A stretch of DNA of 64,000 bases from assembly GCA_003221005.1 (NCBI GenBank), contig QHTZ01000074.1:14864-78863 (forward strand), given 5' to 3'. The stretch comes from Gemmatimonadota bacterium. GTDB lineage: Bacteria; Gemmatimonadota; Gemmatimonadetes; Gemmatimonadales; GWC2-71-9. Both the position numbers and the translations under genes were made by a program. This document shows, piece by piece, positions 34,336-52,404 of this stretch (positions are counted from its first letter, which is position 1; each line of letters opens with the position of its first letter). A model generated the notes under the pieces. That model made no database searches. It had not been told where the DNA came from and saw nothing but the letters and a program-made list of their open reading frames with translations.

Positions 34336-35055
34336 GTGTTCCTCCAGGTAGGCCGTGCGGTTCCGACCACCCCATGGGACCTGGTGCTGACCTCGAGCCG
34401 CGAGACCAAGTTCGTGCTCGCGATCCTGGTCGCGTTCTCGCTCGTTTCGTGGTACCTGATCTTTCTCAAGTGGTGGCAATTCCGCCGCCTGCGGCGTCAG
34501 GCTGATCGCTTCTTGACGGAGATCGAGAAGGCGGCCCGGCTTGACGACGCCTACCATGCCGCCATGCGGCTCCCTGCGTCCCCCTACAACCGGTTGCTGC
34601 GCGAAGGGATTCACTTCTTCTCCGAGCTCAAACCGGGCGGCCTGAAGAGTGACGGGCCCGTGGGCGTGGCGCAGGGCACGCTCACCGCGACCCAGCTCGA
34701 GGCGTTGCGGATGGTCCTCGCCAAGGATGTGGCGGCCGAGCGCGACGCCGCGGCGCGGTTCATCCCGTGGCTCGCGACGTTCGGGTCGGTCAGCCCGCTG
34801 CTCGGCCTGCTGGGAACGGTGCTGGGCGTGATGGACGCATTCATCGGGATCGCCGTCGGGGGTTCGGGGAACATCGCGGCTGTCGCGCCCGGGGTCGCGG
34901 AGGCGCTCGTGACGACGGTCATGGGTCTCGCGGTCGCCGTCCCGTCGGTGATGGCGTATAACCTGTTCGTGAGCCGGTTGGGACTGTTCGCCGGAGAGCT
35001 GGAGGGGTTCGCGCAGGAGATCATCGGCACCATGGCGCGCGAAGGGTGGCTCTGA
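34336..35055 (+). CDS. tolQ: TolQ (MotA/TolQ/ExbB family)
   Basis: SPLLGLLGTVLG, VAPGVAEALVTT; first gene of the tol-pal cluster. Confidence 0.88.
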   Translation: MFLQVGRAVPTTPWDLVLTSSRETKFVLAILVAFSLVSWYLIFLKWWQFRRLRRQADRFLTEIEKAARLDDAYHAAMRLPASPYNRLLREGIHFFSELKPGGLKSDGPVGVAQGTLTATQLEALRMVLAKDVAAERDAAARFIPWLATFGSVSPLLGLLGTVLGVMDAFIGIAVGGSGNIAAVAPGVAEALVTTVMGLAVAVPSVMAYNLFVSRLGLFAGELEGFAQEIIGTMAREGWL

Positions 35056-35493
35056 GTGGCCGGGCTGCTCGGTGGTGGAGGGGGACTGCGTGGGCACGGC
35101 GAGCTGCCCCTCAACGCCGATATCAACGTCACGTCGCTCGTGGACGTCGCGTTCGTCCTCCTCATCATCTTCATGATCACGGCGCCCATCATGCAGGGAG
35201 GCGTGGACGTGCGCCTCCCGCGCGCCGAGGCCCGCCCGCTCGAGCCGAAGCAGGGCCTCGTCATCACGCTCGACCGGGACGGCAAGATCTACCTCGACCA
35301 ATCGCCGCTCTCCTACGAGGACTTCCGGGCCACATTTCCCGCGTTTGTGCGAACCAAACACCCGACCGGGGTGTACCTCCGGGCCGATGGTCGCGTTCCG
35401 TATGTCGATGTCGTTCAGGTGCTGGCCGTGATTCGCACGGCGGGCGTCGCGGACGTGGGCCTCGTGGCCGAACCGGAGACGATCGAGCGGTGA
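35056..35493 (+). CDS. tolR: TolR/ExbD family protein
   Basis: INVTSLVDVAFVLLIIFMITAP, YLRADG. Confidence 0.88.
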   Translation: MAGLLGGGGGLRGHGELPLNADINVTSLVDVAFVLLIIFMITAPIMQGGVDVRLPRAEARPLEPKQGLVITLDRDGKIYLDQSPLSYEDFRATFPAFVRTKHPTGVYLRADGRVPYVDVVQVLAVIRTAGVADVGLVAEPETIER

Positions 35494-36176
35494 GAGGGCG
35501 CCGCCCGCTGCCGGGGAACACGGGCCTGGGACTGGCGGGGACCGCGGTGGTGCATGGGCTCGCCGGCATCATCCTGTTCGGTAGCACCGCGCGTCACCGG
35601 CCGCCGCCACCGGTGTATAAGGTCCAACTGATCGCAGCCCCGGAGCCGGGCGCGGAGACGCGGAAAGCGCCGGAGGCGGTGGAGCGGCCGGCCGCGGAGC
35701 AGCCGGCGCCGGCGCTCAAACCCAAGCCGCAGCCGAAGAGCACGGTGTCCAAGGCGGCGCCGCCCCCGGCCCCTGACGCGGCGCACCGCGAAGCGGCGCC
35801 GCGCACCACTCCCAAGACGGCTCCGCTCCCCGGCGAGAAACCTTCGACGGGGAGCGACGTCGCCACGGTGAGCACGGAGGGCGTGGAGTTCCCCTACCCC
35901 GAGTATCTGCAGAACATCGTGACGCAGATCCTGCGGCGCTGGCAACGGCCGTTCCAGAGCACACCTCTGGAATCGGAAGTCTCCTTCTTCATTCACCGCG
36001 ACGGCGCGATCACCGACCTGCAGTTCGTCAAGCGCTCCGGCAACTTCGCCTTCGATCTCGAAGCCGAGGGCGCCGTCGAAGAAGCGGGCCGGTTCAAGGC
36101 GTTCGGCGCCCTGCCAGCGGGGTGGCAGCCGGACGTGCTGTACGTGCGGTTCTACTTCAGCGGACGAAGGCAATAA
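35490..36176 (+). CDS. TolA/TonB-like energy transducer
   Basis: N-terminal TM segment with a His residue, Pro/Lys-rich linker, TonB_C-like SGNFAFD; lies between tolR and tolB. Confidence 0.78.
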   Translation: MRGRRPLPGNTGLGLAGTAVVHGLAGIILFGSTARHRPPPPVYKVQLIAAPEPGAETRKAPEAVERPAAEQPAPALKPKPQPKSTVSKAAPPPAPDAAHREAAPRTTPKTAPLPGEKPSTGSDVATVSTEGVEFPYPEYLQNIVTQILRRWQRPFQSTPLESEVSFFIHRDGAITDLQFVKRSGNFAFDLEAEGAVEEAGRFKAFGALPAGWQPDVLYVRFYFSGRRQ

Positions 36177-37598
36177 ATGCGACGGAAAGACGGAAGGACG
36201 GAAGGACGGAAGTTGTGCTGGGCGGCGGTCGGCTGCTTGCTCACTCTTTCCGTCCTTCCGTCGTTCCGTCTTTCCGCCCAGGATACCTCCGCCATCGACC
36301 GCGGCGTCCGCATCGGGATCGTCTATCGGCCCGGTGTCAGACCCGGCGTCGTCCTGCTTCCCGATCGATCCACGGCGCTCGATTCGGTGCGCGCCATCCT
36401 GGCGCGTGACCTCGACTACAGCGACCGCTTCGAGCTCATCACGCTGCCTGGTGGCGACTCGATCCGCGTGAGCGCGCCAGCCGCCGCCCGCGCGCCGGGC
36501 GCGCGCACGACGGCGGGTGCGCGGGCCCACACGGGCGGTGAGGCGGCGGGGCTCAATTACCCGTTGTACCAGGCGCTAGGCGCCGATTTCGCTATCGCGC
36601 TCGCCGCCGTGCGCGATACCACCCAGGTGACGATCCACGATGTGACGGCCGGCGCGGTGCGGCGACTCCTGAAGGCCCGTCTCCCCACGGCGACGTCGTC
36701 CCAGTTCCGAATGGCAGTGCACCGGCTCGCCGACAAGATTGTCGAAGCGACGCTCGGCACCGCGGGGACCGCGGCCACCCGCGTCCTCTTCGTGATGGAC
36801 GGCAAGCTGTACCAGATCGACTCGGATGGCGCGGGCTTCAAGGAGATTCTCTCGACGAAAGGCCGCGCGATCCTGTCCCCCGTCTGGGACCGCGACGGGC
36901 GGCGCATTGCGTACATGGAGTTCTGGTCCGGACACGGTCAGCTCTTCGTCCAGGATGCCGCTACCGGCCGTCGCCGCGCCGTTACCGACGGCGCTACGCT
37001 GGACTTCACGCCGGTCTTCTCGCCCGACGGCAAGGGCCTGACGTTCAGCCGCGCCATCGAAGAAGGCACCGACGTGTACACGTTCAACCTCCGGGACAAC
37101 TGCTGTTTACAGCGCTTGACCGTCGGGAGGTTTTCTGACAACTTGTCTCCGGCCTACAGTCCAGACGGGCAGCGCATCGCGTTCGTGTCGACCCGGCCGG
37201 GCTTGCCGCAGATCTACGTGATGGCGGCGGACGGGACCGACGAGCAGTTGTTCGCGCCGTTTGACTACGGGGTGACCGGCTCATCCAACGCGCCCGACTG
37301 GTCGCCCGATGGGCAGTCGGTAGCATTTCATCGCGACGTGGCCGGGACGCTGCAGGTGTTCGTGCTGGATGTGCGGACGCGCACGGTCCGTCAGCTCACC
37401 TCCTTGGGGCGGAATGAAGACCCCACTTGGGCGCCCGACAGCCGGCACGTGGCGTTTGTCTCCGATCGCTCGGGGTATCGGCAGCTCTGGGTGATCGACA
37501 TGGAAACGGGTCGCATCCGGCCGCTGCTGCAGCAGAGCGGCGTCCGTTTGCCGGCATGGTCTCCGCGGCTTCCGGAGACCGAACAGTCCACCCCTTGA
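36177..37598 (+). CDS. tolB: TolB beta-propeller protein
   Basis: RDLDYSDRF, PD40 repeats (FSPDG, YSPDG, WSPDG); upstream of pal. Confidence 0.9.
   Translation: MRRKDGRTEGRKLCWAAVGCLLTLSVLPSFRLSAQDTSAIDRGVRIGIVYRPGVRPGVVLLPDRSTALDSVRAILARDLDYSDRFELITLPGGDSIRVSAPAAARAPGARTTAGARAHTGGEAAGLNYPLYQALGADFAIALAAVRDTTQVTIHDVTAGAVRRLLKARLPTATSSQFRMAVHRLADKIVEATLGTAGTAATRVLFVMDGKLYQIDSDGAGFKEILSTKGRAILSPVWDRDGRRIAYMEFWSGHGQLFVQDAATGRRRAVTDGATLDFTPVFSPDGKGLTFSRAIEEGTDVYTFNLRDNCCLQRLTVGRFSDNLSPAYSPDGQRIAFVSTRPGLPQIYVMAADGTDEQLFAPFDYGVTGSSNAPDWSPDGQSVAFHRDVAGTLQVFVLDVRTRTVRQLTSLGRNEDPTWAPDSRHVAFVSDRSGYRQLWVIDMETGRIRPLLQQSGVRLPAWSPRLPETEQSTP
36181..36278. repeat. Inverted octamer tandem arrays inside the tolB 5' end
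   Basis: GACGGAAA (GACGGAAG)3 at 36181-36212 and TTTCCGTC CTTCCGTC GTTCCGTC TTTCCGCC at 36247-36278. Confidence 0.9.
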
Positions 37599-37615
37599 CC
37601 TGGAGAGCGCCTCAC

Positions 37616-38230
37616 ATGACACGCCCACTGCTGCTTGTGCTGGCCGGCCTCGTCACCGCGGGCGTGGTTGCCTGCGGGGGCAATCCGCAGCCTGCGACGC
37701 CCGCGCCGCAGGCCAATGCGGATTCGATCGCGGCCGCAGAGAAGGCACGGCAGGACTCCATCGCGGCGGCGGAGGCCGCGGCGCGGGCCCGTGAAGAGGC
37801 CGAGCGGGTCGCCCGGCAGCGCACCGCCGATTCACTGGCGGCGCTCGGCCGCGGCACCGAAGCGGTCCGCACGATGCTCGCCACGATGATTCACTTCGAC
37901 TTCGACAAGTCGAACATCCGCTCGGACGACGCCGGGACGCTCGACCAGAAGGTCGGGATCCTTCAGGCGAATTCCAATGCGCACATCCGCATCGCGGGGC
38001 ATTGTGACGAGCGCGGCTCCGACGAGTACAACCTGGCCCTGGGCAACCGCCGCGCGACCGCGGCCAAGCAATACCTGGTGAGTCACGGCATCGACGGGGG
38101 CCGCATCGAGACACAGTCGTTCGGCAAGGAGCGGCCGCTCGACCCGGGGCACAACGAAGAAGCGTGGTCGAAGAACCGCCGCGACGAGTTCGACATCACC
38201 AGCGGCGGCGACGCGCTGAGACAGCCGTAA
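37616..38230 (+). CDS. pal: Peptidoglycan-associated lipoprotein Pal
   Basis: Lipobox VVAC, IHFDFDKS, GHCDERGSDEYNLALGNRRA, KNRRDEF. Confidence 0.94.
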   Translation: MTRPLLLVLAGLVTAGVVACGGNPQPATPAPQANADSIAAAEKARQDSIAAAEAAARAREEAERVARQRTADSLAALGRGTEAVRTMLATMIHFDFDKSNIRSDDAGTLDQKVGILQANSNAHIRIAGHCDERGSDEYNLALGNRRATAAKQYLVSHGIDGGRIETQSFGKERPLDPGHNEEAWSKNRRDEFDITSGGDALRQP

Positions 38231-38241
38231 GGACCCTTCGG

Positions 38242-39027
38242 TTGCTGCGAAAACTGTCGTTGATGCTCGGTGTCGCACTGCTCGGCGGATGCGCCCTCAA
38301 GGGGGACGTCCGCCGAGTTGAGTTGCAGGTCGCGGCGTTGAAGGCGGACTTGAGCGATGCGGACGCGGCGCGCAAGGCGCAGATCGATTCGCTGCTGGCC
38401 CTCGTCGCCGCCGTGCAGCAGGCGCTCGGCGCGCAGCAGCAGTATCTCGTTCGAATGCGCGGTGACGTCCGGACCGATCTCCTGTCCGTACAGCAGCAGC
38501 TGGTCGCGGTCCAGGAGCTCACCGGGCAGAGCCAGCAACGTCTGACCGAGCTGCGCGGCCGTCTCGAGGAGCAGGCGCGACAGCCGGTGCCCCCGGTCGA
38601 CAACCCCAATCCCACCGGGGCACCGGTCGGGCCGTCGGGCACCGTGGCAGGTCCGGGCCCCGACCGGATGTACGAACTCTCGCTCCAGCAGTACCGGCGT
38701 GGCAGCCTCGCCACCGCGCGCGTCGCCTTCCGCGAGTTCCTGCGGCTCTACCCCACTCATGACCGGGCGCCCGACGCGCTGTTCTACATCGGCGAGACGT
38801 TCGGCGGCGAGAACGCCGATTCGGCCGCCGCCGTGTATCAACAGGTCGTGAAGACCTATCCCAACTCCACACGGGCTCCCTCGGCCCTGTACAAGCTGGG
38901 CCTCCTCGCCGAGACCCGGGGCGACAAGGCGACCGCTCGGACCTACTACCAACGGGTCGTGGCGGGATATCCCCGCTCGGACGAAGCCAACCTCGCCCGC
39001 GACAAGCTTCAGCGACTGGGGCGTTAG
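38242..39027 (+). CDS. cpoB: Tol-pal system protein CpoB/YbgF (lipoprotein form)
   Basis: TTG start after AAGGA, lipobox LGGC, coiled coil then TPR (APDALFYIG, APSALYKLG); follows pal. Confidence 0.85.
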   Translation: MLRKLSLMLGVALLGGCALKGDVRRVELQVAALKADLSDADAARKAQIDSLLALVAAVQQALGAQQQYLVRMRGDVRTDLLSVQQQLVAVQELTGQSQQRLTELRGRLEEQARQPVPPVDNPNPTGAPVGPSGTVAGPGPDRMYELSLQQYRRGSLATARVAFREFLRLYPTHDRAPDALFYIGETFGGENADSAAAVYQQVVKTYPNSTRAPSALYKLGLLAETRGDKATARTYYQRVVAGYPRSDEANLARDKLQRLGR

Positions 39028-39051: not shown

Positions 39052-42000
39052 GTGCCTGACGAACCCACGCGGGGCGAGATGCCCTTCCTCGATCACCTCG
39101 AGGAACTGCGCTGGCGCATCCTGTACAGTCTGCTCGCCGTGCTCGTCGGAACGCTTGTCGGGTGGGTCATCGTCGAGCGGATCGACGTCATCGGGCTGCT
39201 GATCCGCCCGATCGCGCCGCTCATTCCCGGCGGCCGTCTCAAGTTCACGAGCCCCACCGAGCCGTTCTTCATCACGCTGAAGTTCGCCTTCGCTGTGGGG
39301 GTGCTGCTCGCTTCGCCCGTCGTCATCTACCAGATCTGGGCGTTCCTCGCCCCAGCGCTGTACGAGCGGGAGAAGCGCGTGATCGTTCCAGCCCTCTCGA
39401 TCGGGGTGCTGTTGTTTCTCGCCGGGGCAGCAGCGGCGTACCTCTGGGTGCTGCCCCGGGCCCTGATCGTGCTGCTCAGTTTCCAGCGCGAAATTCTCGA
39501 GCCGATCATCACGGCGGACAAGTACTTCGGTTTCGCGGCTCAGATCATCATCGCCTTCGGTCTCGTGACCGAGCTGCCGCTCGTCATCGTGATCCTCGCG
39601 GCGCTCGGCCTGGTGACGCCGCAGTTCCTGGTGCGCCACCGCCGCTATGCCATCGTGCTGTCGGCCCTCGCCGCGGCGCTCCTCTCCCCGCCTGACGCGG
39701 TCTCGATGGTGCTCATGATGGTCCCGCTGTGGCTGCTGTACGAGGTGAGCATCTTCTGCGCCTGGGTCGTGACCAAGCGCCGCGCCCGCCGCGAGCAGGC
39801 GGCCCACCGCGCCGCGCTGGTGCTGCTCCTGTTGAGCGGCGTGGCGGCGGGCCGCGTCGGGGCTCAGGGCGTCCCACCACGCGCCGATACGAGCGCCGGG
39901 CGGCCGGGGACGCCCGTGCGCGGCCAGACCATCGACACCGCGGCCGCGCGCAAGCTCGGCCTTCCCACGGGGCCGACCCGCAGCTTTCCCGCGAGCGACC
40001 AGGTGATGGACTCGCTGCTCCGGCTCAAGGGATACCGTGTCACCCAGTACCTGGCCGACACGCTGATCGTCGCCGGCGACAGCCAGACCATCTTCCTCCG
40101 TGGGGAGGCGTTCGTCGACCGCCAGGGCACCAAGCTCGAGGCCGACTCGGTGCGCTACCGCGAGGCGAGCTGCCGGCTGGACGCCACCGGGGACCCGCGG
40201 CTCTTTGACCAGGGCACCGTGATGGTGGGCGAGGGCATGCGCTACGACACGTGCGTCCGGCGCGGCACGGTGCGGCAGGCTTTCACGGATTTCCGGCAGG
40301 GGGCGGCGACCTGGTATGTGCGCGGCGACCTGGCGGTCGATTCGGGCTCGACCCGGGTGTACGGAGCCTCGAGCGAGATCACGTCCGACGACCACCCCGT
40401 GCCGGACTACCACTTCGCCACCGGACAGGTGAAGTGGCTCAACAAGAGCGTAATGATCGCCCGCCCCGCGGTCCTCTACGTCCGCGACGTGCCGATTCTG
40501 TGGCTGCCGTTCATTTTCCAGGACATCCGACCGGGCCGCCGCAGTGGTGTCCTGGTGCCGCGCTTCGGCCTGAACGACCTGATCCGGCAGACGCGCAGCT
40601 ACCAGCGGCACTTTTCCAACCTGGGTTACTACTGGGTCGTGAACGACTACCTGGACCTGCTCGCGTCGGCCGATTGGTACGCCGGCCGGAACGTGACGCT
40701 GCGGGGCCAGTCACGCTACCGCTGGCTGGACCGCTTCGTCACTGGCAGCTTCACGTTCGCACGGGTGGATCAGCTCGACAGCCCGGCGTCCTCGATGCAG
40801 CTCAGCTGGCAGCACCAGCAGAGCTTCGACAGCCGCACCAGCTTCAACGCCAGCATCAATTACGCGACGAGTGGCACGGTGCTGCAGCAGAATTCGGTCG
40901 ACCCCTATCTCGCGACCGCGCAGCTGTCGTCGCAGTTGAACTTCAGCAAGCGATTCGACTGGGGGGCGCTGAACGTCGGCGGGAGCCGCTCCCAGGATCT
41001 TTCGAGCGGCGCGGTGACCCAAAGCTTCCCCGGGGTAACCCTCACCCCCTCGCCGGTCAACATCACGCCCGACATCACCTGGTCGCCCGGGTTCTCGTTC
41101 ACGAACCAGCAGTCGTTCCACTCGGGGCCTCCAACGCTGCTCCCGTTCCCCGGCACGGGCGCGGCGCTGGACACGGTCGCCCTGTTCAGCGCCAGCCGCC
41201 AGTCCGCCATCAGCCTGCAGACGCCGCTCCGCGTCGGCCGGTGGAACTGGGCCAACAGCATCACCATCAATGACGCCACAAGCGACCAGCGCCGGGAGTT
41301 CGCCATCCCGGATTCCACGGTACCTGGGGGCCGGCGCCGCAGGCTGTATGCGTCCACCTTTGCCACCCAGATCGATTGGCAAACGGGCATCAACCTCCCC
41401 CAGGTCCTGTCGGGTACATGGAAGGTCCAGCCGGGCCTCTCGATCGTGAACACGACGTCCGCCGGGCCGTTCATGCTGCGCAACCAGTTCACCAACGGGC
41501 AGTTCGTCGAGCAGGGGAAGCGCCTGCAATTCAGTGCGGGCATGCGCCCCACGTTGTTCGGCTTCTTCCCTGGATTCGGGCCGCTCGCGCGGATCCGGCA
41601 TTCGATTTCACCGATCATCGACTGGCGCTACGCTCAGGGTAAGGACGTGGATAGCCTGTTCGCGTACGCGCTCGATCCGACGCGCACCACGCTCAACGCG
41701 CGTAGCGACGCGCAGCAGACGATCAGCATCGGACTGTCGCAGAACTTCGAAGGAAAGCTCCGCCCCCCGCCGCACGACACCGGCCAGCAGCAGGCACGCA
41801 AGCTGCGGTTACTGAGCATCAACACCGACCCGATCTCGTACAACTTCGAGCAGGCCAAGCAACCGGGGCAGACCGGGTGGCAGACGCAGACCGTCGGGAA
41901 CACGTTCGCGTCGGACCTGCTCCCGAATTTCAGCCTGCGGCTGGTGCACGATCTCTGGGACGGGCCGGTGGGGCGCGATTCCTCCAAATTCGCGCCGTTC

Positions 42001-42576
42001 CTCACGAGCGTGAACGCGAGCTTCTCCATCTCACCGGCAACGGTGCGTGGCTTCGCACACCTCCTGGGGTTTCACACGGGAGCGGGCCCGGCGGCGGCGC
42101 CCGCACCCGCCCCAGCCGCCCCCGTCCCGCCCGTCGGGTCGATGCCACTTCCGACGCCCCCTCTGTTCAGCGGCCCGACCAGCAGTCTCGGCGCCGGCGC
42201 GGGAGGTGCGGGTGCCGGGCAGGGCTTCGCGCTCTCCGTTACCTACACCAGCACCCGCGTCCGGCCCGGGAAGGACAGCACCGGCGCGCCGATTCCGGTG
42301 CCCGCGGTGGCCGGGCAACAGGTGCTCAGTCTCAACCTGAGCTTCAAGCCGACTGCGAAGTGGCAGGCAAACTGGACGACCACGTACGACAGGGCGACGC
42401 ATACGTTCGGAGAGCACTTCCTGCGATTGGAGCGGGACCTGCACCGCTGGCACGCGAGCTTCGCGTTCGTGAAGAGTCCCAACGGCAACTTCGCCTTCAC
42501 GTTCTTCGTGTCGTTGCTCGATCAGCCCGACATCAAGTTCAACTACGAGCAGCAGACACTGCAGAACGTTCCGTAA
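39052..42576 (+). CDS. tatC: Fusion ORF: complete TatC (aa about 1-240), signal-peptide-like linker, then a putative LPS-assembly protein LptD-like outer-membrane protein
   Basis: TatC motifs MPFLDHLEELR, YQIWAFLAPAL, SPPD, LYEVSI; LptD-like motifs PDYHF, VPILWLPF, RRSGVLVPRFG, NLGYYW, RDLHRW; no stop codon between the two. Confidence 0.85.
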   Translation: MPDEPTRGEMPFLDHLEELRWRILYSLLAVLVGTLVGWVIVERIDVIGLLIRPIAPLIPGGRLKFTSPTEPFFITLKFAFAVGVLLASPVVIYQIWAFLAPALYEREKRVIVPALSIGVLLFLAGAAAAYLWVLPRALIVLLSFQREILEPIITADKYFGFAAQIIIAFGLVTELPLVIVILAALGLVTPQFLVRHRRYAIVLSALAAALLSPPDAVSMVLMMVPLWLLYEVSIFCAWVVTKRRARREQAAHRAALVLLLLSGVAAGRVGAQGVPPRADTSAGRPGTPVRGQTIDTAAARKLGLPTGPTRSFPASDQVMDSLLRLKGYRVTQYLADTLIVAGDSQTIFLRGEAFVDRQGTKLEADSVRYREASCRLDATGDPRLFDQGTVMVGEGMRYDTCVRRGTVRQAFTDFRQGAATWYVRGDLAVDSGSTRVYGASSEITSDDHPVPDYHFATGQVKWLNKSVMIARPAVLYVRDVPILWLPFIFQDIRPGRRSGVLVPRFGLNDLIRQTRSYQRHFSNLGYYWVVNDYLDLLASADWYAGRNVTLRGQSRYRWLDRFVTGSFTFARVDQLDSPASSMQLSWQHQQSFDSRTSFNASINYATSGTVLQQNSVDPYLATAQLSSQLNFSKRFDWGALNVGGSRSQDLSSGAVTQSFPGVTLTPSPVNITPDITWSPGFSFTNQQSFHSGPPTLLPFPGTGAALDTVALFSASRQSAISLQTPLRVGRWNWANSITINDATSDQRREFAIPDSTVPGGRRRRLYASTFATQIDWQTGINLPQVLSGTWKVQPGLSIVNTTSAGPFMLRNQFTNGQFVEQGKRLQFSAGMRPTLFGFFPGFGPLARIRHSISPIIDWRYAQGKDVDSLFAYALDPTRTTLNARSDAQQTISIGLSQNFEGKLRPPPHDTGQQQARKLRLLSINTDPISYNFEQAKQPGQTGWQTQTVGNTFASDLLPNFSLRLVHDLWDGPVGRDSSKFAPFLTSVNASFSISPATVRGFAHLLGFHTGAGPAAAPAPAPAAPVPPVGSMPLPTPPLFSGPTSSLGAGAGGAGAGQGFALSVTYTSTRVRPGKDSTGAPIPVPAVAGQQVLSLNLSFKPTAKWQANWTTTYDRATHTFGEHFLRLERDLHRWHASFAFVKSPNGNFAFTFFVSLLDQPDIKFNYEQQTLQNVP

Positions 42577-42709
42577 GCCGGCGGTTCGCCTGTCCCCTGG
42601 TGAGGACAGCCGAAATCCAGGTTTCGCGGGTAACACGAAGCGGGCACGTCACTTCGTATCGGGCATGCCGCCTGCGGAGACGAACGCCAACCTTCGTCAA
42701 AAGGAACCT

Positions 42710-43585
42710 ATGCGCACGCCGTTTGCGACCCTCCTAGCTGCCGCGGGGCTCGTCGCCCTCGGGTGCAACAACACGAACTCAGTCGGGGCGCCTCTCCCTG
42801 CGCCCCAGGACGTGGCATCGGTCTCCTTGAACCAGGCGATTGACCTGTATTGGGCGGACAACTCGTACGCCAGCGCGCCCTCCCGGTTCTTGTGGTATCG
42901 CATCTTCAGCACCAGCTACGATAACGTTCGCTGTGGCGCCACGTGGCAACTCGAAGGGACGACGATCGCCCCCGAATTCCTCGTGGGGGCACTCACGAAC
43001 GGCGTGCCGCGCTGCTACACGGTCACGGCTGTCGCCATCGACGGGGCTGAGAGCGACCAGTCCCTCCCGTGGCAGGACACGCCTCGCCCCGATGCGCGCA
43101 ACGTGGTGCTCTACGCGTCCGCCACCAAGGCCGATTCCTCGGGGTTCCTGTTCTGGGACGACGCCAACAACGACGGCGTCGGCGATCCCAACGAACTGGG
43201 GCTCGTCGAGAATCCCAGCGGGGGCATCGTCGACTTCAAGATCGACCGCAACAACGCCGATTCGACTCTCTGGCTCGTGCCGGTCTACTCCGGGACCACG
43301 ATGTTGGAGTACGGCACGGTTGACGATCTCACGTCCATCGACTACGCGCCCGCCACCGGGTATAGCCGCGACTCGCTGCAAGCGTTCCCGGGGGACGGCT
43401 ACGTCTTCAAGATCGTGGACCCCTCTGGTCTCCACTACGGCGCGGTGCGCGTGACGCATGTCGGTCGGCGGTATCTCATCCTCGACTGGAGCGTGCAGAC
43501 CGATCCCGGCAACCCCGAGCTCGTGGTGCGGGGCGGCTTGCTCACCGCGAAGCCGACGGGCTCGATGGTCGCCACGCCGCGCTAA
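42710..43585 (+). CDS. Lipoprotein of unknown function with an FN3-like N-terminal domain
   Basis: AAGGA SD, MRTPFATLLAAAGLVALGC lipobox, LYW..YRI..LTNG..YTVTAV...ES pattern. Confidence 0.72.
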   Translation: MRTPFATLLAAAGLVALGCNNTNSVGAPLPAPQDVASVSLNQAIDLYWADNSYASAPSRFLWYRIFSTSYDNVRCGATWQLEGTTIAPEFLVGALTNGVPRCYTVTAVAIDGAESDQSLPWQDTPRPDARNVVLYASATKADSSGFLFWDDANNDGVGDPNELGLVENPSGGIVDFKIDRNNADSTLWLVPVYSGTTMLEYGTVDDLTSIDYAPATGYSRDSLQAFPGDGYVFKIVDPSGLHYGAVRVTHVGRRYLILDWSVQTDPGNPELVVRGGLLTAKPTGSMVATPR

Positions 43586-43599
43586 AGGGTGATTTCACG

Positions 43600-43638
43600 A
43601 GGCGCCAGGCTGCCGGCGGTTGCGGCGGCCTGGCGCCT
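43600..43638. terminator. Hairpin after the lipoprotein gene
   Basis: AGGCGCCAGGCTGCCG...CGGCGGCCTGGCGCCT inverted repeat. Confidence 0.55.
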
Positions 43639-43655
43639 TCGTAGTTTCCCCCCGT

Positions 43656-45146
43656 ATGCCCGCTGAGGTCACCATCGACGGCCGCTCGTTGTCGATTGCG
43701 GACGTCGTAGCGGTGGCGCGCCACGAGGCGACGGTGGCGATCTCCTCTCCCGCGTTGCGCGAGGTCGGGCGGTGTCGCGAGGTGGTCGAAGCGGCCCTGG
43801 CGGGAGGCGCGACGATGTACGGCGTCACGACCGGGTTCGGCAAGCTCGCCCACGTCCGCATTCCCTCCGAGCGGATCCGCCAGCTCCAGCTCAACCTGAT
43901 TCGCAGCCATGCCTCCGGCGTGGGCGAGCCGCTGGCCACTGAGGCGGTGCGCGCAATGATGCTGCTGCGTGCCAACGTGCTCGTGCGGGGCACGAGCGGC
44001 GTGCGGCCCCGCCTGCCGGAGCTCCTCGTCGCGATGCTCAACGCCCGCGTGCATCCGCGCGTGCCTTCCCAGGGCAGCGTGGGAGCGTCGGGCGACCTGG
44101 CGCCGCTGGCGCATCTCGCGCTCGCGCTGGTCGGCGAGGGGGATGACGGCGCCGCGCTCCGGACCGCGGGCCTGCAACCGATCGAGTTGGAAGCGAAAGA
44201 GGGGTTGGCGTTCGTGAACGGCACCCAGGCGCAGGCCGGCCTCGCGGCGCTGCTGGTGCACGACGCCTGGGTGCTGTGGCGCACGGCACACGCGGCCGCG
44301 GCGATGAGCCTGGAGGCGGTGCGCGGCACGCCGGAGCCGTTCGATGCTCGCATCCACGCGGCACGGCCGCATCCGTTCCAGGAGCAGTCAGCCGCGCTGC
44401 TGCGCGAGCTGCTCGCCGACAGCGAGATCCGGGAGTCCCACCGCGAGCACGATCCCAGAGTGCAGGACGCCTACTCGCTGCGCTGCACCCCGCAGATCCT
44501 GGGCGCGGTCGGCGAGGGGCTCGCGTTCGCCGAGCGCCTGGTGGCGGTCGAGCTCAACGCGGCGACGGATAACCCGCTGGTGTTCGGCGAGGACATCGTG
44601 TCGGGCGGCAACTTCCACGGCCAGCCGCTGGCCCTGGCGCTCGACGTGCTCGGCATCGGGCTCGCCACGCTCGCGGGGCTGGCCGAGCGGCGGATCGAGC
44701 GGATCGTCAATCCCGATCTCTCCTCCGGGCTGCCGGCGTTTCTCGCGCGCGAGCCGGGCTTGGAATCGGGGTTCATGACGCCGCAGATCGCGGCCGCCGC
44801 GCTCGCGGCGGAATGCCGGGTGCTCGCCACGCCCGCGAGCGTGCAGTCGCTACCCACGGAAGGGAATCAGGAGGACGTGGTGCCGATGGGGATGAGCGCC
44901 GCCTGGAAGGCTGGGCGCATCTTCGCCAACGCGGTGCGCGTCGTGGCGATTGAGCTGCTGGCCGGCGCGCAGGGACTCGAGTTCCTGAAGCCGCTCAAGC
45001 CGGGGCGTGGCGTGGCGCGCGCACACGGCGTAGTGCGACGGGATGTGCCGCCCCTCGCCGGCGATCGCCCGCTCACCGGAGACATCGAGCGGGTGGCGGC
45101 GGGGATCCGGGCGGGAGAGTTCGATCCAGAAGGGGGAGGGGCGTGA
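43656..45146 (+). CDS. hutH: Histidine ammonia-lyase
   Basis: [11 protein letters not shown] motif [33 protein letters not shown]. Confidence 0.96.
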
Positions 45147-51953: not shown

Positions 51954-52196
51954 ATGTTCGGGGACCTGTCGTTCAGCCACATCCTGATCCTGCTGCTCAT
52001 CGTGGTCCTGGTGTTCGGCGCGAAGCGCATTCCGGAGATCGGGTCGTCGCTGGGTCAGGGCATCCGCGAGTTCACCCGCAGCCTGAAAGGTGCGGTCGAC
52101 GACCGCCCGGAATCACGCGGCGTGCAGCCTCCTGCCTCCCCTCCAGCATCCTCCTCGGTCCCCTCCAGCGGCGAGCCGAAGCGGCTCAACCAGTAG
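51954..52196 (+). CDS. tatA: Twin-arginine translocase subunit TatA
   Basis: ILLLIVVLVFGAKRIPEIGSSLGQGIREF. Confidence 0.92.
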   Translation: MFGDLSFSHILILLLIVVLVFGAKRIPEIGSSLGQGIREFTRSLKGAVDDRPESRGVQPPASPPASSSVPSSGEPKRLNQ

Positions 52197-52200
52197 CGGT

Positions 52201-52404
52201 GTGAGCGGCGGCGAGCTCTTTCTCCTCCTCGTCATCGCGCTGCTGGTCCTGGGCGCGCACCGCCTTCCCGAAGCGGGTCGCCTCGTCGGGAAGGGGTTGC
52301 GCGACTTTCAGCGCGCGCTCAACGAGGCGCGCCATGCGGTCGAGGAGGGGCAGGAGCAGCCGCGCACGTCAGAAGGTGCGCGCCCGCGACGGCTGATCGA
52401 CTGA
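52201..52404 (+). CDS. Second TatA/TatB-family subunit
   Basis: MSGGELFLLLVIALLVLGAHRLPEAGRLVGKGLRDF; E in the TM segment and LG in place of FG are TatB-like. Confidence 0.8.
   Translation: MSGGELFLLLVIALLVLGAHRLPEAGRLVGKGLRDFQRALNEARHAVEEGQEQPRTSEGARPRRLID

What the first reader, a model, noticed from the sequence alone, without database searches (positions are those of the whole stretch)
39052..42576. TatC fused in-frame to an LptD-like outer-membrane protein: a candidate processed polyprotein
Seen: one uninterrupted 1174-codon ORF with a full TatC followed by about 900 aa bearing LptD-like motifs and a beta-strand-rich C-terminus. Established: TatC is an inner-membrane protein with six TM helices and a cytoplasmic C-terminus, whereas LptD is a BAM-inserted outer-membrane barrel, so an intact fusion poses a topological problem. 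Inference: the chain is either cleaved by signal peptidase into two envelope machines made 1:1, or it remains a trans-envelope tether coupling Tat to LPS assembly. It directly follows tol-pal-cpoB. I do not know of a characterised example.
Basis: partly seen in the sequence, partly recalled or inferred. Interest (0 to 1): 0.85.

Follow-up and report, generated by a model that had tools for sequence, protein, structure and literature searches.

The report
Conserved TatC–LptD fusion gene in Gemmatimonadales
One gene in an uncultured family of soil bacteria encodes both an inner-membrane export protein (TatC) and the outer-membrane lipopolysaccharide inserter (LptD), joined by a retained signal peptide that most likely lets signal peptidase cut them apart after synthesis.

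Summary
Window 39052-42576 (+) is one open 1174-codon frame: a complete TatC (aa 14-225) followed by an LptD_2-family protein. A predicted model matches solved LptD and TatC structures.

It is not an assembly artefact:
- Contigs from four soil-metagenome studies cover the junction without indels.
- All 120 listed database clusters carry both domains.
- About 110 of 125 sampled genomes of the same family are fused.

It is the only TatC and the only LptD-like gene found in this 94%-complete genome.

Across the phylum the usual state is tatC immediately upstream of lptD. Fusion and fission changed at least 9-12 times on the LptD tree.

Every fused junction inspected keeps LptD's signal peptide. 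In 71 fused proteins Q272 is invariant, position -1 is A or G in all 71, -3 is L/A/V/S, and -2 varies. This is a signal peptidase I site.

Best reading (about 0.7): the product is inserted cotranslationally and cut at A271/Q272. That gives a 7-helix TatC and a free LptD precursor. Cleavage itself is untested. No description was found in print.

The parts
39052..42576 (+). Whole fused tatC-lptD ORF, 1174 codons plus stop. Alternative start ATG at 39079 (M10).
   Evidence: P0002 is 1165 aa, which corresponds to the M10 start.
39091..39726 (+). TatC domain (aa 14-225), with six transmembrane helices. TM6 runs to about aa 240.
   Evidence: PF00902 E 1.9e-62. TIGR00945 above its cut-off. Foldseek to TatC 4b4a: TM 0.81, 40% identity. 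Only TatC match in the genome.
39775..39864 (+). Internal signal peptide, which would form a 7th helix. n-region K242-R253 (Arg-rich), h-region A254-G267, c-region R268-A271.
   Evidence: Translation. Aligned with the N-terminal signal peptides of LptD in split relatives. Position statistics.
39862..39867 (+). Predicted signal peptidase I cleavage site, A271 / Q272.
   Evidence: 71 fused proteins: +1 is Q in 71/71; -1 is A in 66 and G in 5; -3 is L 51, A 11, V 7, S 2; -2 is variable; -5 is G in 53. TolB of the same operon has the motif LSA followed by Q after its h-region.
39865..40041 (+). Pro/Arg/Thr-rich, poorly conserved linker at the start of mature LptD (aa 272-330).
   Evidence: pLDDT below 50 for aa 249-295. 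Low column identity. A comparable stretch is present in split relatives.
40042..40521 (+). Periplasmic beta-jellyroll domain of the LptD-like part (aa 331-490).
   Evidence: Strands 331-490 in the model. Foldseek alignments to full-length LptD span 870-983 columns. Weak NCBIfam LptD matches at aa 342-509 and 475-599.
40609..42516 (+). Outer-membrane beta-barrel of the LptD-like part (aa 520-1155).
   Evidence: PF19838 LptD_2. Model strands. The top 15 Foldseek PDB hits are all LptD, mostly chains of solved LptDE complexes, one (rank 6) a deposited model of E. coli LptD; best E 5.1e-25.
42073..42222 (+). Pro/Ala/Gly-rich low-complexity insert within the barrel region (aa 1008-1057).
   Evidence: pLDDT below 50 for aa 1008-1057. 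Translation.
35046..39027 (+). Upstream genes on the same strand: tolA-like, tolB, pal and a cpoB-like TPR gene. They end 24 nt before the fused ORF.
   Evidence: Pfam TonB_2, PD40, OmpA, TPR_6/YfiO. ORF list.
51966..52335 (+). Two TatA/B-family genes, the partner subunits of TatC, about 9.4 kb downstream.
   Evidence: PF02416 matches at C88:66829-66966 and 67064-67198, converted to window coordinates.

Best explanation
This is a genuine, evolutionarily maintained fusion of tatC with the downstream lptD gene (LptD_2 family). It is typical of one uncultured Gemmatimonadales family.

The fusion arose when the stop codon, or the reading frame, between two anciently adjacent genes was lost. LptD's own Sec-type signal peptide was kept and now lies directly after TatC helix 6, whose end is cytoplasmic.

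Inferred mechanism:
1. The chain is targeted and inserted cotranslationally as a polytopic membrane protein.
2. The former signal peptide inserts N-in/C-out as a 7th helix. This starts export of the roughly 900-residue LptD part through SecYEG.
3. Signal peptidase I cuts between A271 and Q272.

The products would be (a) a TatC carrying an extra C-terminal helix that ends in the periplasm, and (b) a normal periplasmic LptD precursor. BAM would then assemble that precursor with LptE in the outer membrane.

The fusion itself is probably near-neutral. It is tolerated because processing separates the two proteins and because both are needed at low, similar levels.

Shown here: the fusion, its conservation, the identity of both parts, and conservation of the cleavage motif. 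Inferred: insertion topology, cleavage and the fate of the products.
For: The fusion is real and conserved:
- All 120 listed clusters (63-100% identity, 1036-1233 aa) carry PF00902 and PF19838.
- By my tally of the table plus junction checks, 110 of 125 sampled genomes of family f1 are fused across the junction. Two of the 110, G200 and G082, are unpublished genomes.
- Independent contigs cover the junction without indels.

Both functions must come from this gene. It is the sole TatC and the sole LptD_2. PF04453 was not found. The genome is 93.9% complete and also has LptF/G, LptE, LpxC, TatA/B and two S26 signal peptidases.

The fold matches LptD (E 5e-25, TM 0.42-0.56 normalised to target) and TatC (TM 0.81).

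The cleavage site is conserved:
- Q272 is the only invariant column between L229 and D295.
- Positions -1 and -3 are constrained while -2 is free.
- By my reading of the printed junctions, all 34 fused junctions inspected keep an h-region followed by A or G and then Q.
- Nearly all split relatives inspected show the same site at LptD's true N-terminus; the exceptions are listed under evidence against.
- In this genome Q is enriched 1.68-fold after a -3/-1 motif in signal-peptide regions, against 0.89-fold in a control region. That is 150 versus 70 of 622 ORFs.

Fused, split and unlinked states changed at least 12 times on the LptD tree, with at least 9 changes forced by supported branches. This fits functional equivalence of the states.

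Precedent: S. aureus signal peptidase SpsB cleaves the polytopic LtaS (PMC12260438, abstract seen).
Against: - No proteomic, RNA or biochemical data bear on cleavage. No RNA run was listed.
- The residue at -3 is mostly Leu (51 of 71), which is allowed but not the classical Ala/Val.
- The h+c length is 17-30 residues with a median of 22. That is also long enough for a stable membrane anchor, so length does not discriminate.
- The AlphaFold model places TM6 and the signal peptide in one long low-confidence helix and gives no information on topology.
- The site is not uniform in split relatives: G016 has Cys and G040 Ser at -1, and no site could be read from the frame printed for G032.
- No PF05096 glutaminyl cyclase was found, so a pyroglutamate rationale for the invariant Q is unsupported.
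- The genome-wide signal-peptide scan is a crude heuristic of my own.
- Some 'split' singletons (G007, G133, G167) could be frameshift errors in metagenome-assembled genomes.
- The rows for the tree were chosen partly by the trait being counted.
Confidence: 0.7

Rival explanations
1. The chain stays uncleaved, wholly or in part, and forms a covalent tether between inner and outer membrane. TatC with helix 7 would sit in the inner membrane, the roughly 60-residue flexible linker would cross the periplasm, and the LptD barrel would sit in the outer membrane. This would place Tat next to the LPS insertion site and to Tol-Pal.
For: There is no stop and no conserved internal start, so the full chain must be synthesised. 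The linker at aa 272-330 is disordered and, by my own estimate, could span much of a periplasm if extended. The uncharged stretch is long enough (median 22 residues) to anchor in a membrane. The gene follows tol-pal.
Against: The -3/-1/+1 pattern of a peptidase site is kept in 71 of 71 fused proteins while its surroundings drift, which an anchor would not need. The linker and the site are the same in split relatives, so nothing appears adapted to tethering. Repeated fission and even unlinking within the fused family argue against an obligatory covalent link.
Confidence: 0.1
2. LptD is made mainly as a separate protein from an internal in-frame start codon upstream of the signal peptide (for example GTG at 39769, V240). 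On this view the fused chain is a minor by-product.
For: In the window, in-frame GTGs lie 40, 32 and 15 codons before Q272. Starting at V240 would give a normal-looking signal peptide.
Against: None of the three GTGs has a Shine-Dalgarno-like motif within 18 nt upstream. Two fused relatives (L003/G005 and L018/G012) have no in-frame ATG, GTG or TTG at all from -45 to -14. Without a stop codon, ribosomes translating tatC continue into lptD in any case, so the fused chain is still produced and still has to be handled.
Confidence: 0.07
3. The C-terminal part is an LptD-fold barrel with some function other than LPS insertion.
For: Canonical LptD models score far below their cut-offs: NF002997 scores 20.6 bits against 683. 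PF04453 was not found and PF03968 was not found. Sequence identity to solved LptD is only 8-12%.
Against: It is the only LptD-like gene in a genome that has LptF/G, LptE and LpxC. PF19838 is also the only LptD family that rings in the Bacteroides thetaiotaomicron control. Atlas clusters in other phyla carry PF04453 and PF19838 together. The jellyroll plus barrel aligns over 870-983 columns to LptD.
Confidence: 0.07
4. The fusion is an assembly or sequencing artefact, such as a lost stop codon or a frameshift.
For: The genome is a metagenome-assembled genome in 141 contigs. One relative (G001) shows frameshifts inside the gene.
Against: The fused frame occurs in more than 100 independent assemblies, including closed or near-closed genomes such as G148 and G161. 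Junction contigs from four studies show no indels.
Confidence: 0.01

Closest known systems
Separate, adjacent tatC and lptD (LptD_2) genes of other Gemmatimonadota, including the family with large closed genomes (f2)
   Same: The two proteins, their gene order and strand are the same, and so is the LptD signal peptide with an A/G-Q site. Three genomes (G040, G206, G289) have only a single in-frame stop directly followed by the LptD start codon.
   Different: Here the stop is gone, and TatC's acidic C-terminal tail is shortened to an Arg-rich loop of about 12 residues that doubles as the signal peptide's n-region.
Staphylococcus aureus LtaS, a polytopic membrane protein processed by type I signal peptidase SpsB
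   Same: A signal peptidase cuts after the last membrane helix of a multi-helix protein and releases a large extracytoplasmic part (PMC12260438, abstract; PMC10865820, title and abstract only).
   Different: LtaS is one enzyme whose own domain is released, in a bacterium with a single membrane. Here two unrelated machines, destined for two different membranes, would be separated.
Bradyrhizobium FbcH cytochrome b-c1 precursor (recalled from memory, not retrieved)
   Same: As I recall it, a polytopic inner-membrane protein and a periplasm-facing protein are made as one chain and split at an internal signal peptide.
   Different: Both FbcH products stay in one inner-membrane complex. My search did not find a paper on it, so this comparison rests on recall alone.
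Other non-standard TatC architectures and internal signal peptides: haloarchaeal TatC2 (two fused TatC) and the Streptomyces Rieske protein
   Same: They show that TatC tolerates extra helices and fusions, and that signal peptides can work after membrane helices (PMC13186574, passages seen).
   Different: TatC2 is a TatC-TatC fusion. The Rieske internal signal is a Tat signal and is not a junction between two machines.
Canonical proteobacterial LptD of solved LptDE complexes (e.g. 8h1s, 4q35, 5iv9)
   Same: An N-terminal jellyroll plus a large barrel. The top 15 Foldseek hits are LptD, E down to 5e-25. An LptE gene is present in the genome.
   Different: Sequence identity is only 8-12%. The protein belongs to Pfam LptD_2 rather than PF04453. 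It has a long disordered N-terminal linker and a Pro/Ala/Gly insert, and it is synthesised behind TatC.

Membership tests
TatC (PF00902 / TIGR00945) | Full-length match to the family models above the curated cut-offs | tested here: met
   PF00902 scores 211.2 bits against 25.1, covering model positions 1-208 of 208. TIGR00945 equivalog scores 199.3 against 132.7.
TatC (PF00902 / TIGR00945) | Six-helix TatC fold | tested here: met
   Foldseek to 4b4a, 4hts and 9e01: TM 0.80-0.82 normalised to target, rmsd 3.1-3.5, 35-40% identity.
TatC (PF00902 / TIGR00945) | Cytoplasmic C-terminus after helix 6, with no further membrane span | tested here: not met
   Helix 6 is followed by an Arg-rich loop and a further hydrophobic segment, A254-G267. 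If the inferred topology holds, the C-terminus of the TatC product is periplasmic. The topology itself was not tested.
TatC (PF00902 / TIGR00945) | Partner TatA/B subunits present | tested here: met
   Two PF02416 genes at window 51966-52335.
LptD (LPS-assembly outer-membrane protein) | Match to an LptD family model | tested here: met
   PF19838 LptD_2 scores 136.7 bits against 22.5. Atlas neighbours are LptD-family clusters, some carrying both PF04453 and PF19838.
LptD (LPS-assembly outer-membrane protein) | Match to the canonical proteobacterial LptD models (PF04453, NF002997, NF003358) | tested here: not met
   PF04453 gave no match. The NCBIfam equivalogs score 20.6 and 19.6 bits against cut-offs of 683 and 944.
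LptD (LPS-assembly outer-membrane protein) | N-terminal periplasmic jellyroll plus a large C-terminal beta-barrel | tested here: met
   Model strands at 331-490 and 520-1155. Alignments of 870-983 columns to full-length LptD, probability 1.00. The strand number of the barrel was not counted from coordinates.
LptD (LPS-assembly outer-membrane protein) | Rest of the Lpt and LPS pathway present (LptE plug, LptF/G, lipid A synthesis) | tested here: met
   LptE PF04390, LptF/G PF03739, LpxC PF03331. LptA/LptD_N PF03968 was not found.
LptD (LPS-assembly outer-membrane protein) | LPS insertion activity and a complex with LptE | not testable with these tools
   Needs genetics or biochemistry.
Signal peptidase I substrate (cleavable Sec signal peptide) | n/h/c regions with small or aliphatic residues at -1 and -3 and a free -2 | tested here: met
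   -1 is A 66 / G 5; -3 is L 51 / A 11 / V 7 / S 2; -2 takes at least 8 residue types; -5 is G in 53 of 71; Arg-rich n-region (R243, R244 and R246 in at least 90% of rows).
Signal peptidase I substrate (cleavable Sec signal peptide) | N-terminal position in the precursor | tested here: not met
   The signal peptide lies at aa 242-271, behind six membrane helices.
Signal peptidase I substrate (cleavable Sec signal peptide) | Actual cleavage | not testable with these tools
   No proteomic data. Two S26 peptidase genes exist in the genome.

The most novel reading that the evidence does not exclude
A substantial fraction of the chain escapes cleavage. One polypeptide would then have seven helices in the inner membrane and a roughly 26-strand barrel in the outer membrane. 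That would make it a covalent trans-envelope protein that pins the Tat translocon to sites of LPS insertion next to Tol-Pal.

Even in the cleaved case there are unusual consequences. LptD would be an outer-membrane barrel whose export is obligatorily cotranslational and SRP-routed. The family's TatC would be a 7-helix variant whose extra helix lies beside helix 6, the region where TatA/TatB helices dock. That docking detail is recalled, not tested here.
Probability: 0.1. Interest if true: 0.9.

Novelty: new variant of a known kind. Interest (0 to 1): 0.6.

Why it matters
Both halves are well-known, mostly essential envelope machines. A single reading frame that joins a polytopic inner-membrane protein to a BAM-dependent outer-membrane barrel is not something the field describes.

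If it is processed, it is:
- a natural bacterial polyprotein resolved by signal peptidase I;
- a natural test of whether a very large outer-membrane protein precursor can be exported cotranslationally behind membrane helices;
- evidence that TatC can function with a 7th helix and a periplasmic C-terminus.

If it is not processed, it would be a single protein spanning both membranes.

There is also a practical point. Databases name these 1150-1190-residue proteins only 'TatC'. LptD therefore looks absent from this abundant soil family, which affects surveys of outer-membrane gene content.

The repeated fusion, fission and unlinking gives a clean comparative system of fused and split sister genomes.

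Tried and rejected
Artefact. Rejected on the basis.

Internal start. Examined. No conserved start and no SD-like motif were found. The script's 'fused'/'split' labels in that call were unreliable because they looked only for stops in the LptD frame, and its motif finder picked the wrong Q in several rows (for example L021, L033, L039, L041, L046, L056). I therefore use only the rows named in the report.

Genome-wide signal-peptide scans. The first two versions were too noisy because they placed cleavage sites inside membrane helices. With those, Q at +1 was 22 of 454 and 21 of 328. Only the motif-enrichment version is used, and only as weak support.

Glutaminyl cyclase PF05096. No match in the own genome. 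The Bacteroides control does not ring either, so this says nothing about the Q-rule.

LptA/LptD_N PF03968. No match at E <= 0.001.

RNA evidence. No RNA holder was listed, so nothing can be said about expression or internal transcripts.

A Tat-type internal signal. Considered because of the Arg-rich n-region. Rejected as unlikely because split relatives have ordinary signal peptides, some without RR (for example G027), and because a barrel precursor must cross unfolded. The second reason is reasoning, not a test.

Literature. No paper describing the fusion was found:
- TatC + LptD + fusion gave 9 papers, none on point by title or abstract.
- Gemmatimonadetes + LptD gave 2 papers. Passages of PMC8871954 were read.
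- Gemmatimonad + TatC gave 31 papers, of which 10 were listed. PMC3827258 has zero occurrences of 'fusion' or 'fused'.
- PF19838, TatC-LptD and LptD-TatC each had zero occurrences.
- One search failed to retrieve the FbcH precedent.
- The Q-rule paper (PMC5837995; abstract and passages) does not mention Gemmatimonadetes in its main text. Its supplementary tables, which I did not open, may list the phylum.

Full report
OBSERVATION

Window 39052-42576 (+) is a single open frame of 1174 codons.
- Pfam finds a complete TatC (PF00902, aa 14-225, E 1.9e-62) and LptD_2 (PF19838, from aa 469, E 1.2e-39).
- The NCBIfam tatC equivalog passes its cut-off (199.3 against 132.7 bits). The proteobacterial LptD equivalogs give only faint matches (about 20 bits against cut-offs of 683 and 944).
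- The upstream genes on the same strand are TolA-like, TolB, Pal and a CpoB-like TPR protein. They end 24 nt before the ORF.

IS IT REAL?

Contigs assembled independently from four soil-metagenome runs of four studies cover 39400-40400 with no insertion or deletion. X1 record 1 and X2 record 9 bridge the junction. X2 may be the source sample, and X3 leaves 39801-38 uncovered. The few substitutions near the junction are synonymous or conservative by my reading of the codons.

More decisively, a search of the 5.8-billion-protein collection returned 1104 hits. All 120 listed hits (63-100% identity, 1036-1233 aa) carry both Pfam domains in one protein. NCBI and JGI name them only 'TatC'.

A scan of GTDB species genomes returned 80 loci. 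All come from uncultured Gemmatimonadales or Gemmatimonadota MAGs, and nearly all match the query from about residue 1-9 to about residue 1170.

WHAT THE PARTS ARE

An AlphaFold2 model built on 71 fused homologues (alignment A1; model, mean pLDDT 73.9) shows:
- a helical N-terminal part, aa 12-260;
- a low-confidence stretch, aa 249-295;
- a strand domain, aa 331-490;
- a long strand-rich region, aa 520-1155, interrupted by a low-confidence Pro/Ala/Gly insert at aa 1008-1057.

In a Foldseek search against the PDB, the top 15 matches are all LptD, mostly chains of solved LptDE complexes; rank 6 is a deposited model of E. coli LptD. The best E is 5.1e-25, with 870-983 aligned columns and TM 0.42-0.56 normalised to target. 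These are followed by TatC structures at TM 0.80-0.82.

In the window's own genome (93.9% complete), this ORF is the only TatC match and the only LptD_2 match. PF04453 has no match. The genome also has:
- LptF/G, LptE and LpxC;
- two TatA/B genes at window 51966-52335;
- two S26 signal peptidases.

Both Tat and Lpt therefore appear to depend on this one gene.

THE JUNCTION

After TatC helix 6 comes the stretch KRRARREQAAHRAALVLLLLSGVAAGRVGAQG (aa 242-273). It consists of an Arg-rich segment, a 14-residue uncharged core (A254-G267), a short polar end, and then Q272.

In relatives whose genes are separate, the LptD-like protein begins with an ordinary signal peptide that nearly always ends in the same way, with A or G followed by Q. 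The exceptions are G016 with Cys and G040 with Ser at that position; for G032 no site could be read from the printed frame. By my reading of the printed junctions, all 34 fused junctions I inspected keep the hydrophobic core and that ending.

Across the 71 fused proteins of A1:
- +1 is Q in 71 of 71;
- -1 is A in 66 and G in 5;
- -3 is L 51, A 11, V 7, S 2;
- -5 is G in 53;
- -2 takes at least eight different residues.

Q272 is the only invariant column between L229 and D295. Constraint at -1 and -3 with freedom at -2 is the classical signature of a signal peptidase I site.

TolB, encoded in the same operon, has L-S-A followed by Q after its own hydrophobic core.

A crude scan of my own suggests that Q, and C (as expected for lipoproteins), are the clearly enriched residues after a -3/-1 motif in N-terminal signal regions of this genome. 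Q is enriched 1.68-fold against 0.89-fold in a control region, or 150 versus 70 of 622 ORFs. This resembles the Bacteroidetes 'Q-rule' (PMC5837995, abstract and passages). That paper does not mention Gemmatimonadetes in its main text.

DISTRIBUTION AND HISTORY

The first survey covered 41 related genomes. The second covered 301 genomes drawn across the phylum.

My tally for the window's family (f1) comes from the table, plus junction checks:

| State in f1 | Genomes (of 125) |
|---|---|
| Fused across the junction | 110 |
| tatC and lptD adjacent but separate (G016, G076, G133, G167) | 4 |
| lptD with no tatC within about 1.3 kb upstream (G018, G013, G253, G190, G244, G090) | 6 |
| Undecidable | 5 |

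The 110 fused genomes break down as follows:
- 84 are full-length with no stop.
- 11 are cut by contig ends but span the junction.
- 14 were flagged with a stop that proved to lie outside the junction.
- G067 makes up the remaining one.

Two of the 110 (G200, G082) are unpublished genomes.

Outside f1:
- At least four fused genomes were seen: G035 and G245 in one genus of f2, G114 in another genus of f2, and G198 in family f4.
- Three genomes (G040, G206, G289) have the two genes in frame, separated by one stop codon that is immediately followed by the LptD start codon.
- tatC lies directly upstream of lptD in 5 of 5 deep-branching families tested.

Only the top 150 match rows were listed, so these counts outside f1 are lower bounds.

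A maximum-likelihood tree of the LptD part (59 rows) needs at least 12 changes between fused and non-fused states, with at least 9 forced by well-supported branches. The pattern reads as one fusion at the base of f1, several later fissions, and at least three independent fusions elsewhere.

Caveats on the tree:
- I picked rows partly because of their state.
- Singleton splits may be MAG errors.
- The number gives a minimum of events, not a rate.

The Atlas search found fused clusters only in Gemmatimonadota.

MECHANISM (INFERRED)

TatC's C-terminus is cytoplasmic in solved structures. A following hydrophobic segment preceded by arginines should therefore insert N-in/C-out and carry the downstream chain into the periplasm. 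This is the same geometry as a normal signal peptide.

I infer three steps: cotranslational insertion, export of the LptD part through Sec, and cleavage at A271/Q272 by one of the two S26 peptidases. This would leave a TatC with a 7th helix and a periplasmic C-terminus, and would release a standard LptD precursor for BAM and LptE.

Type I signal peptidase is known to process a polytopic protein after its last helix in S. aureus LtaS (PMC12260438, abstract). I recall a similar case, the Bradyrhizobium cytochrome b-c1 precursor, but could not retrieve it.

The easy interconversion of fused, split and unlinked states suggests that the fusion brings little or no functional change. That is what cleavage would predict.

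RIVALS

Uncleaved tether. It cannot be excluded, because the chain must be made as one piece, and the linker is disordered and possibly long enough. However, it does not explain conservation of a peptidase site or the repeated fissions.

Internal initiation. It is not conserved. Two fused relatives have no in-frame start codon in the relevant 32 codons, and the window's three GTGs lack SD-like motifs. It also would not stop read-through from tatC.

A non-LPS role for the barrel. This is possible in principle, but it is the only LptD-like gene in a genome with the rest of the pathway.

Artefact. Excluded.

COMPARISON AND NOVELTY

Each half is a member of a known family: TatC clearly, and LptD through the LptD_2 branch and its fold, though not the proteobacterial equivalogs.

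What is unusual is the architecture, and with it a TatC that fails one family feature, the cytoplasmic C-terminus after six helices.

Four literature searches and a dedicated TatC diversity paper (PMC3827258; no occurrence of 'fusion' or 'fused') gave no description of the fusion. The sequences themselves are plentiful in databases under the name TatC.

I rate it a new variant of a known kind, with interest 0.6. It is a surprising and well-conserved architecture with a clear, testable processing hypothesis, but probably without a new biochemical principle if cleavage is confirmed.

LIMITS

- No experiment, proteome or transcriptome bears on cleavage.
- No dedicated signal-peptide predictor was available.
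- The family has no cultured member among the loci seen.
- Supplementary files of papers were not consulted.

Noticed in passing
whole genome G000 (scan); window 36177-37598 (TolB N-terminus): Signal-peptide regions of this Gemmatimonadales genome show a preference for Gln right after the -3/-1 motif: 1.68-fold against 0.89-fold in a control region. TolB ends its signal peptide with LSA followed by Q. This looks like a partial 'Q-rule', so far described for Bacteroidetes. No PF05096 glutaminyl cyclase was found.
   Followed up: partly
window 42073-42222 (aa 1008-1057 of the ORF): A Pro/Ala/Gly-rich low-complexity insert of about 50 residues sits inside the barrel region. It has very low model confidence and is poorly conserved in the 71-sequence alignment. 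It is presumably a long loop.
   Followed up: no
window 42665-43585 (+): A 306-aa ORF directly downstream has no Pfam match. It has a lipoprotein-like N-terminus, a hydrophobic stretch ending in G-C. It might be an unrecognised envelope partner.
   Followed up: no
L019 (G040), L041 (G206), L042 (G289): In these genomes tatC and lptD are in the same frame, separated by a single stop codon that directly abuts the lptD start codon (stop-start arrangement). These are one-mutation neighbours of the fusion and suggest translational coupling in the split state.
   Followed up: partly
L037 (G001:C2:20100-24300): This same-genus relative is fused at the junction but shows two frame changes inside the LptD part, near aa 401 and near aa 970-983. 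It is either a decaying gene or assembly errors in an 83%-complete MAG.
   Followed up: no
G000:C40:25546-26246: The LpxC match is split into two pieces lying in different open frames, model positions 2-70 and 106-266. This could be a frameshift or an assembly error in the lipid A deacetylase gene.
   Followed up: no
L056 (G067) and L057 (G196) junctions: Some fused relatives carry long Gly/Asp/Pro-rich inserts in the cytoplasmic loop between TatC helix 6 and the signal-peptide core. The loop length is therefore not constrained.
   Followed up: no
window 43620-45146 (+): A histidine/aromatic amino acid ammonia-lyase gene (PF00221, E 5.5e-180). It is ordinary and unrelated to the finding.
   Followed up: no
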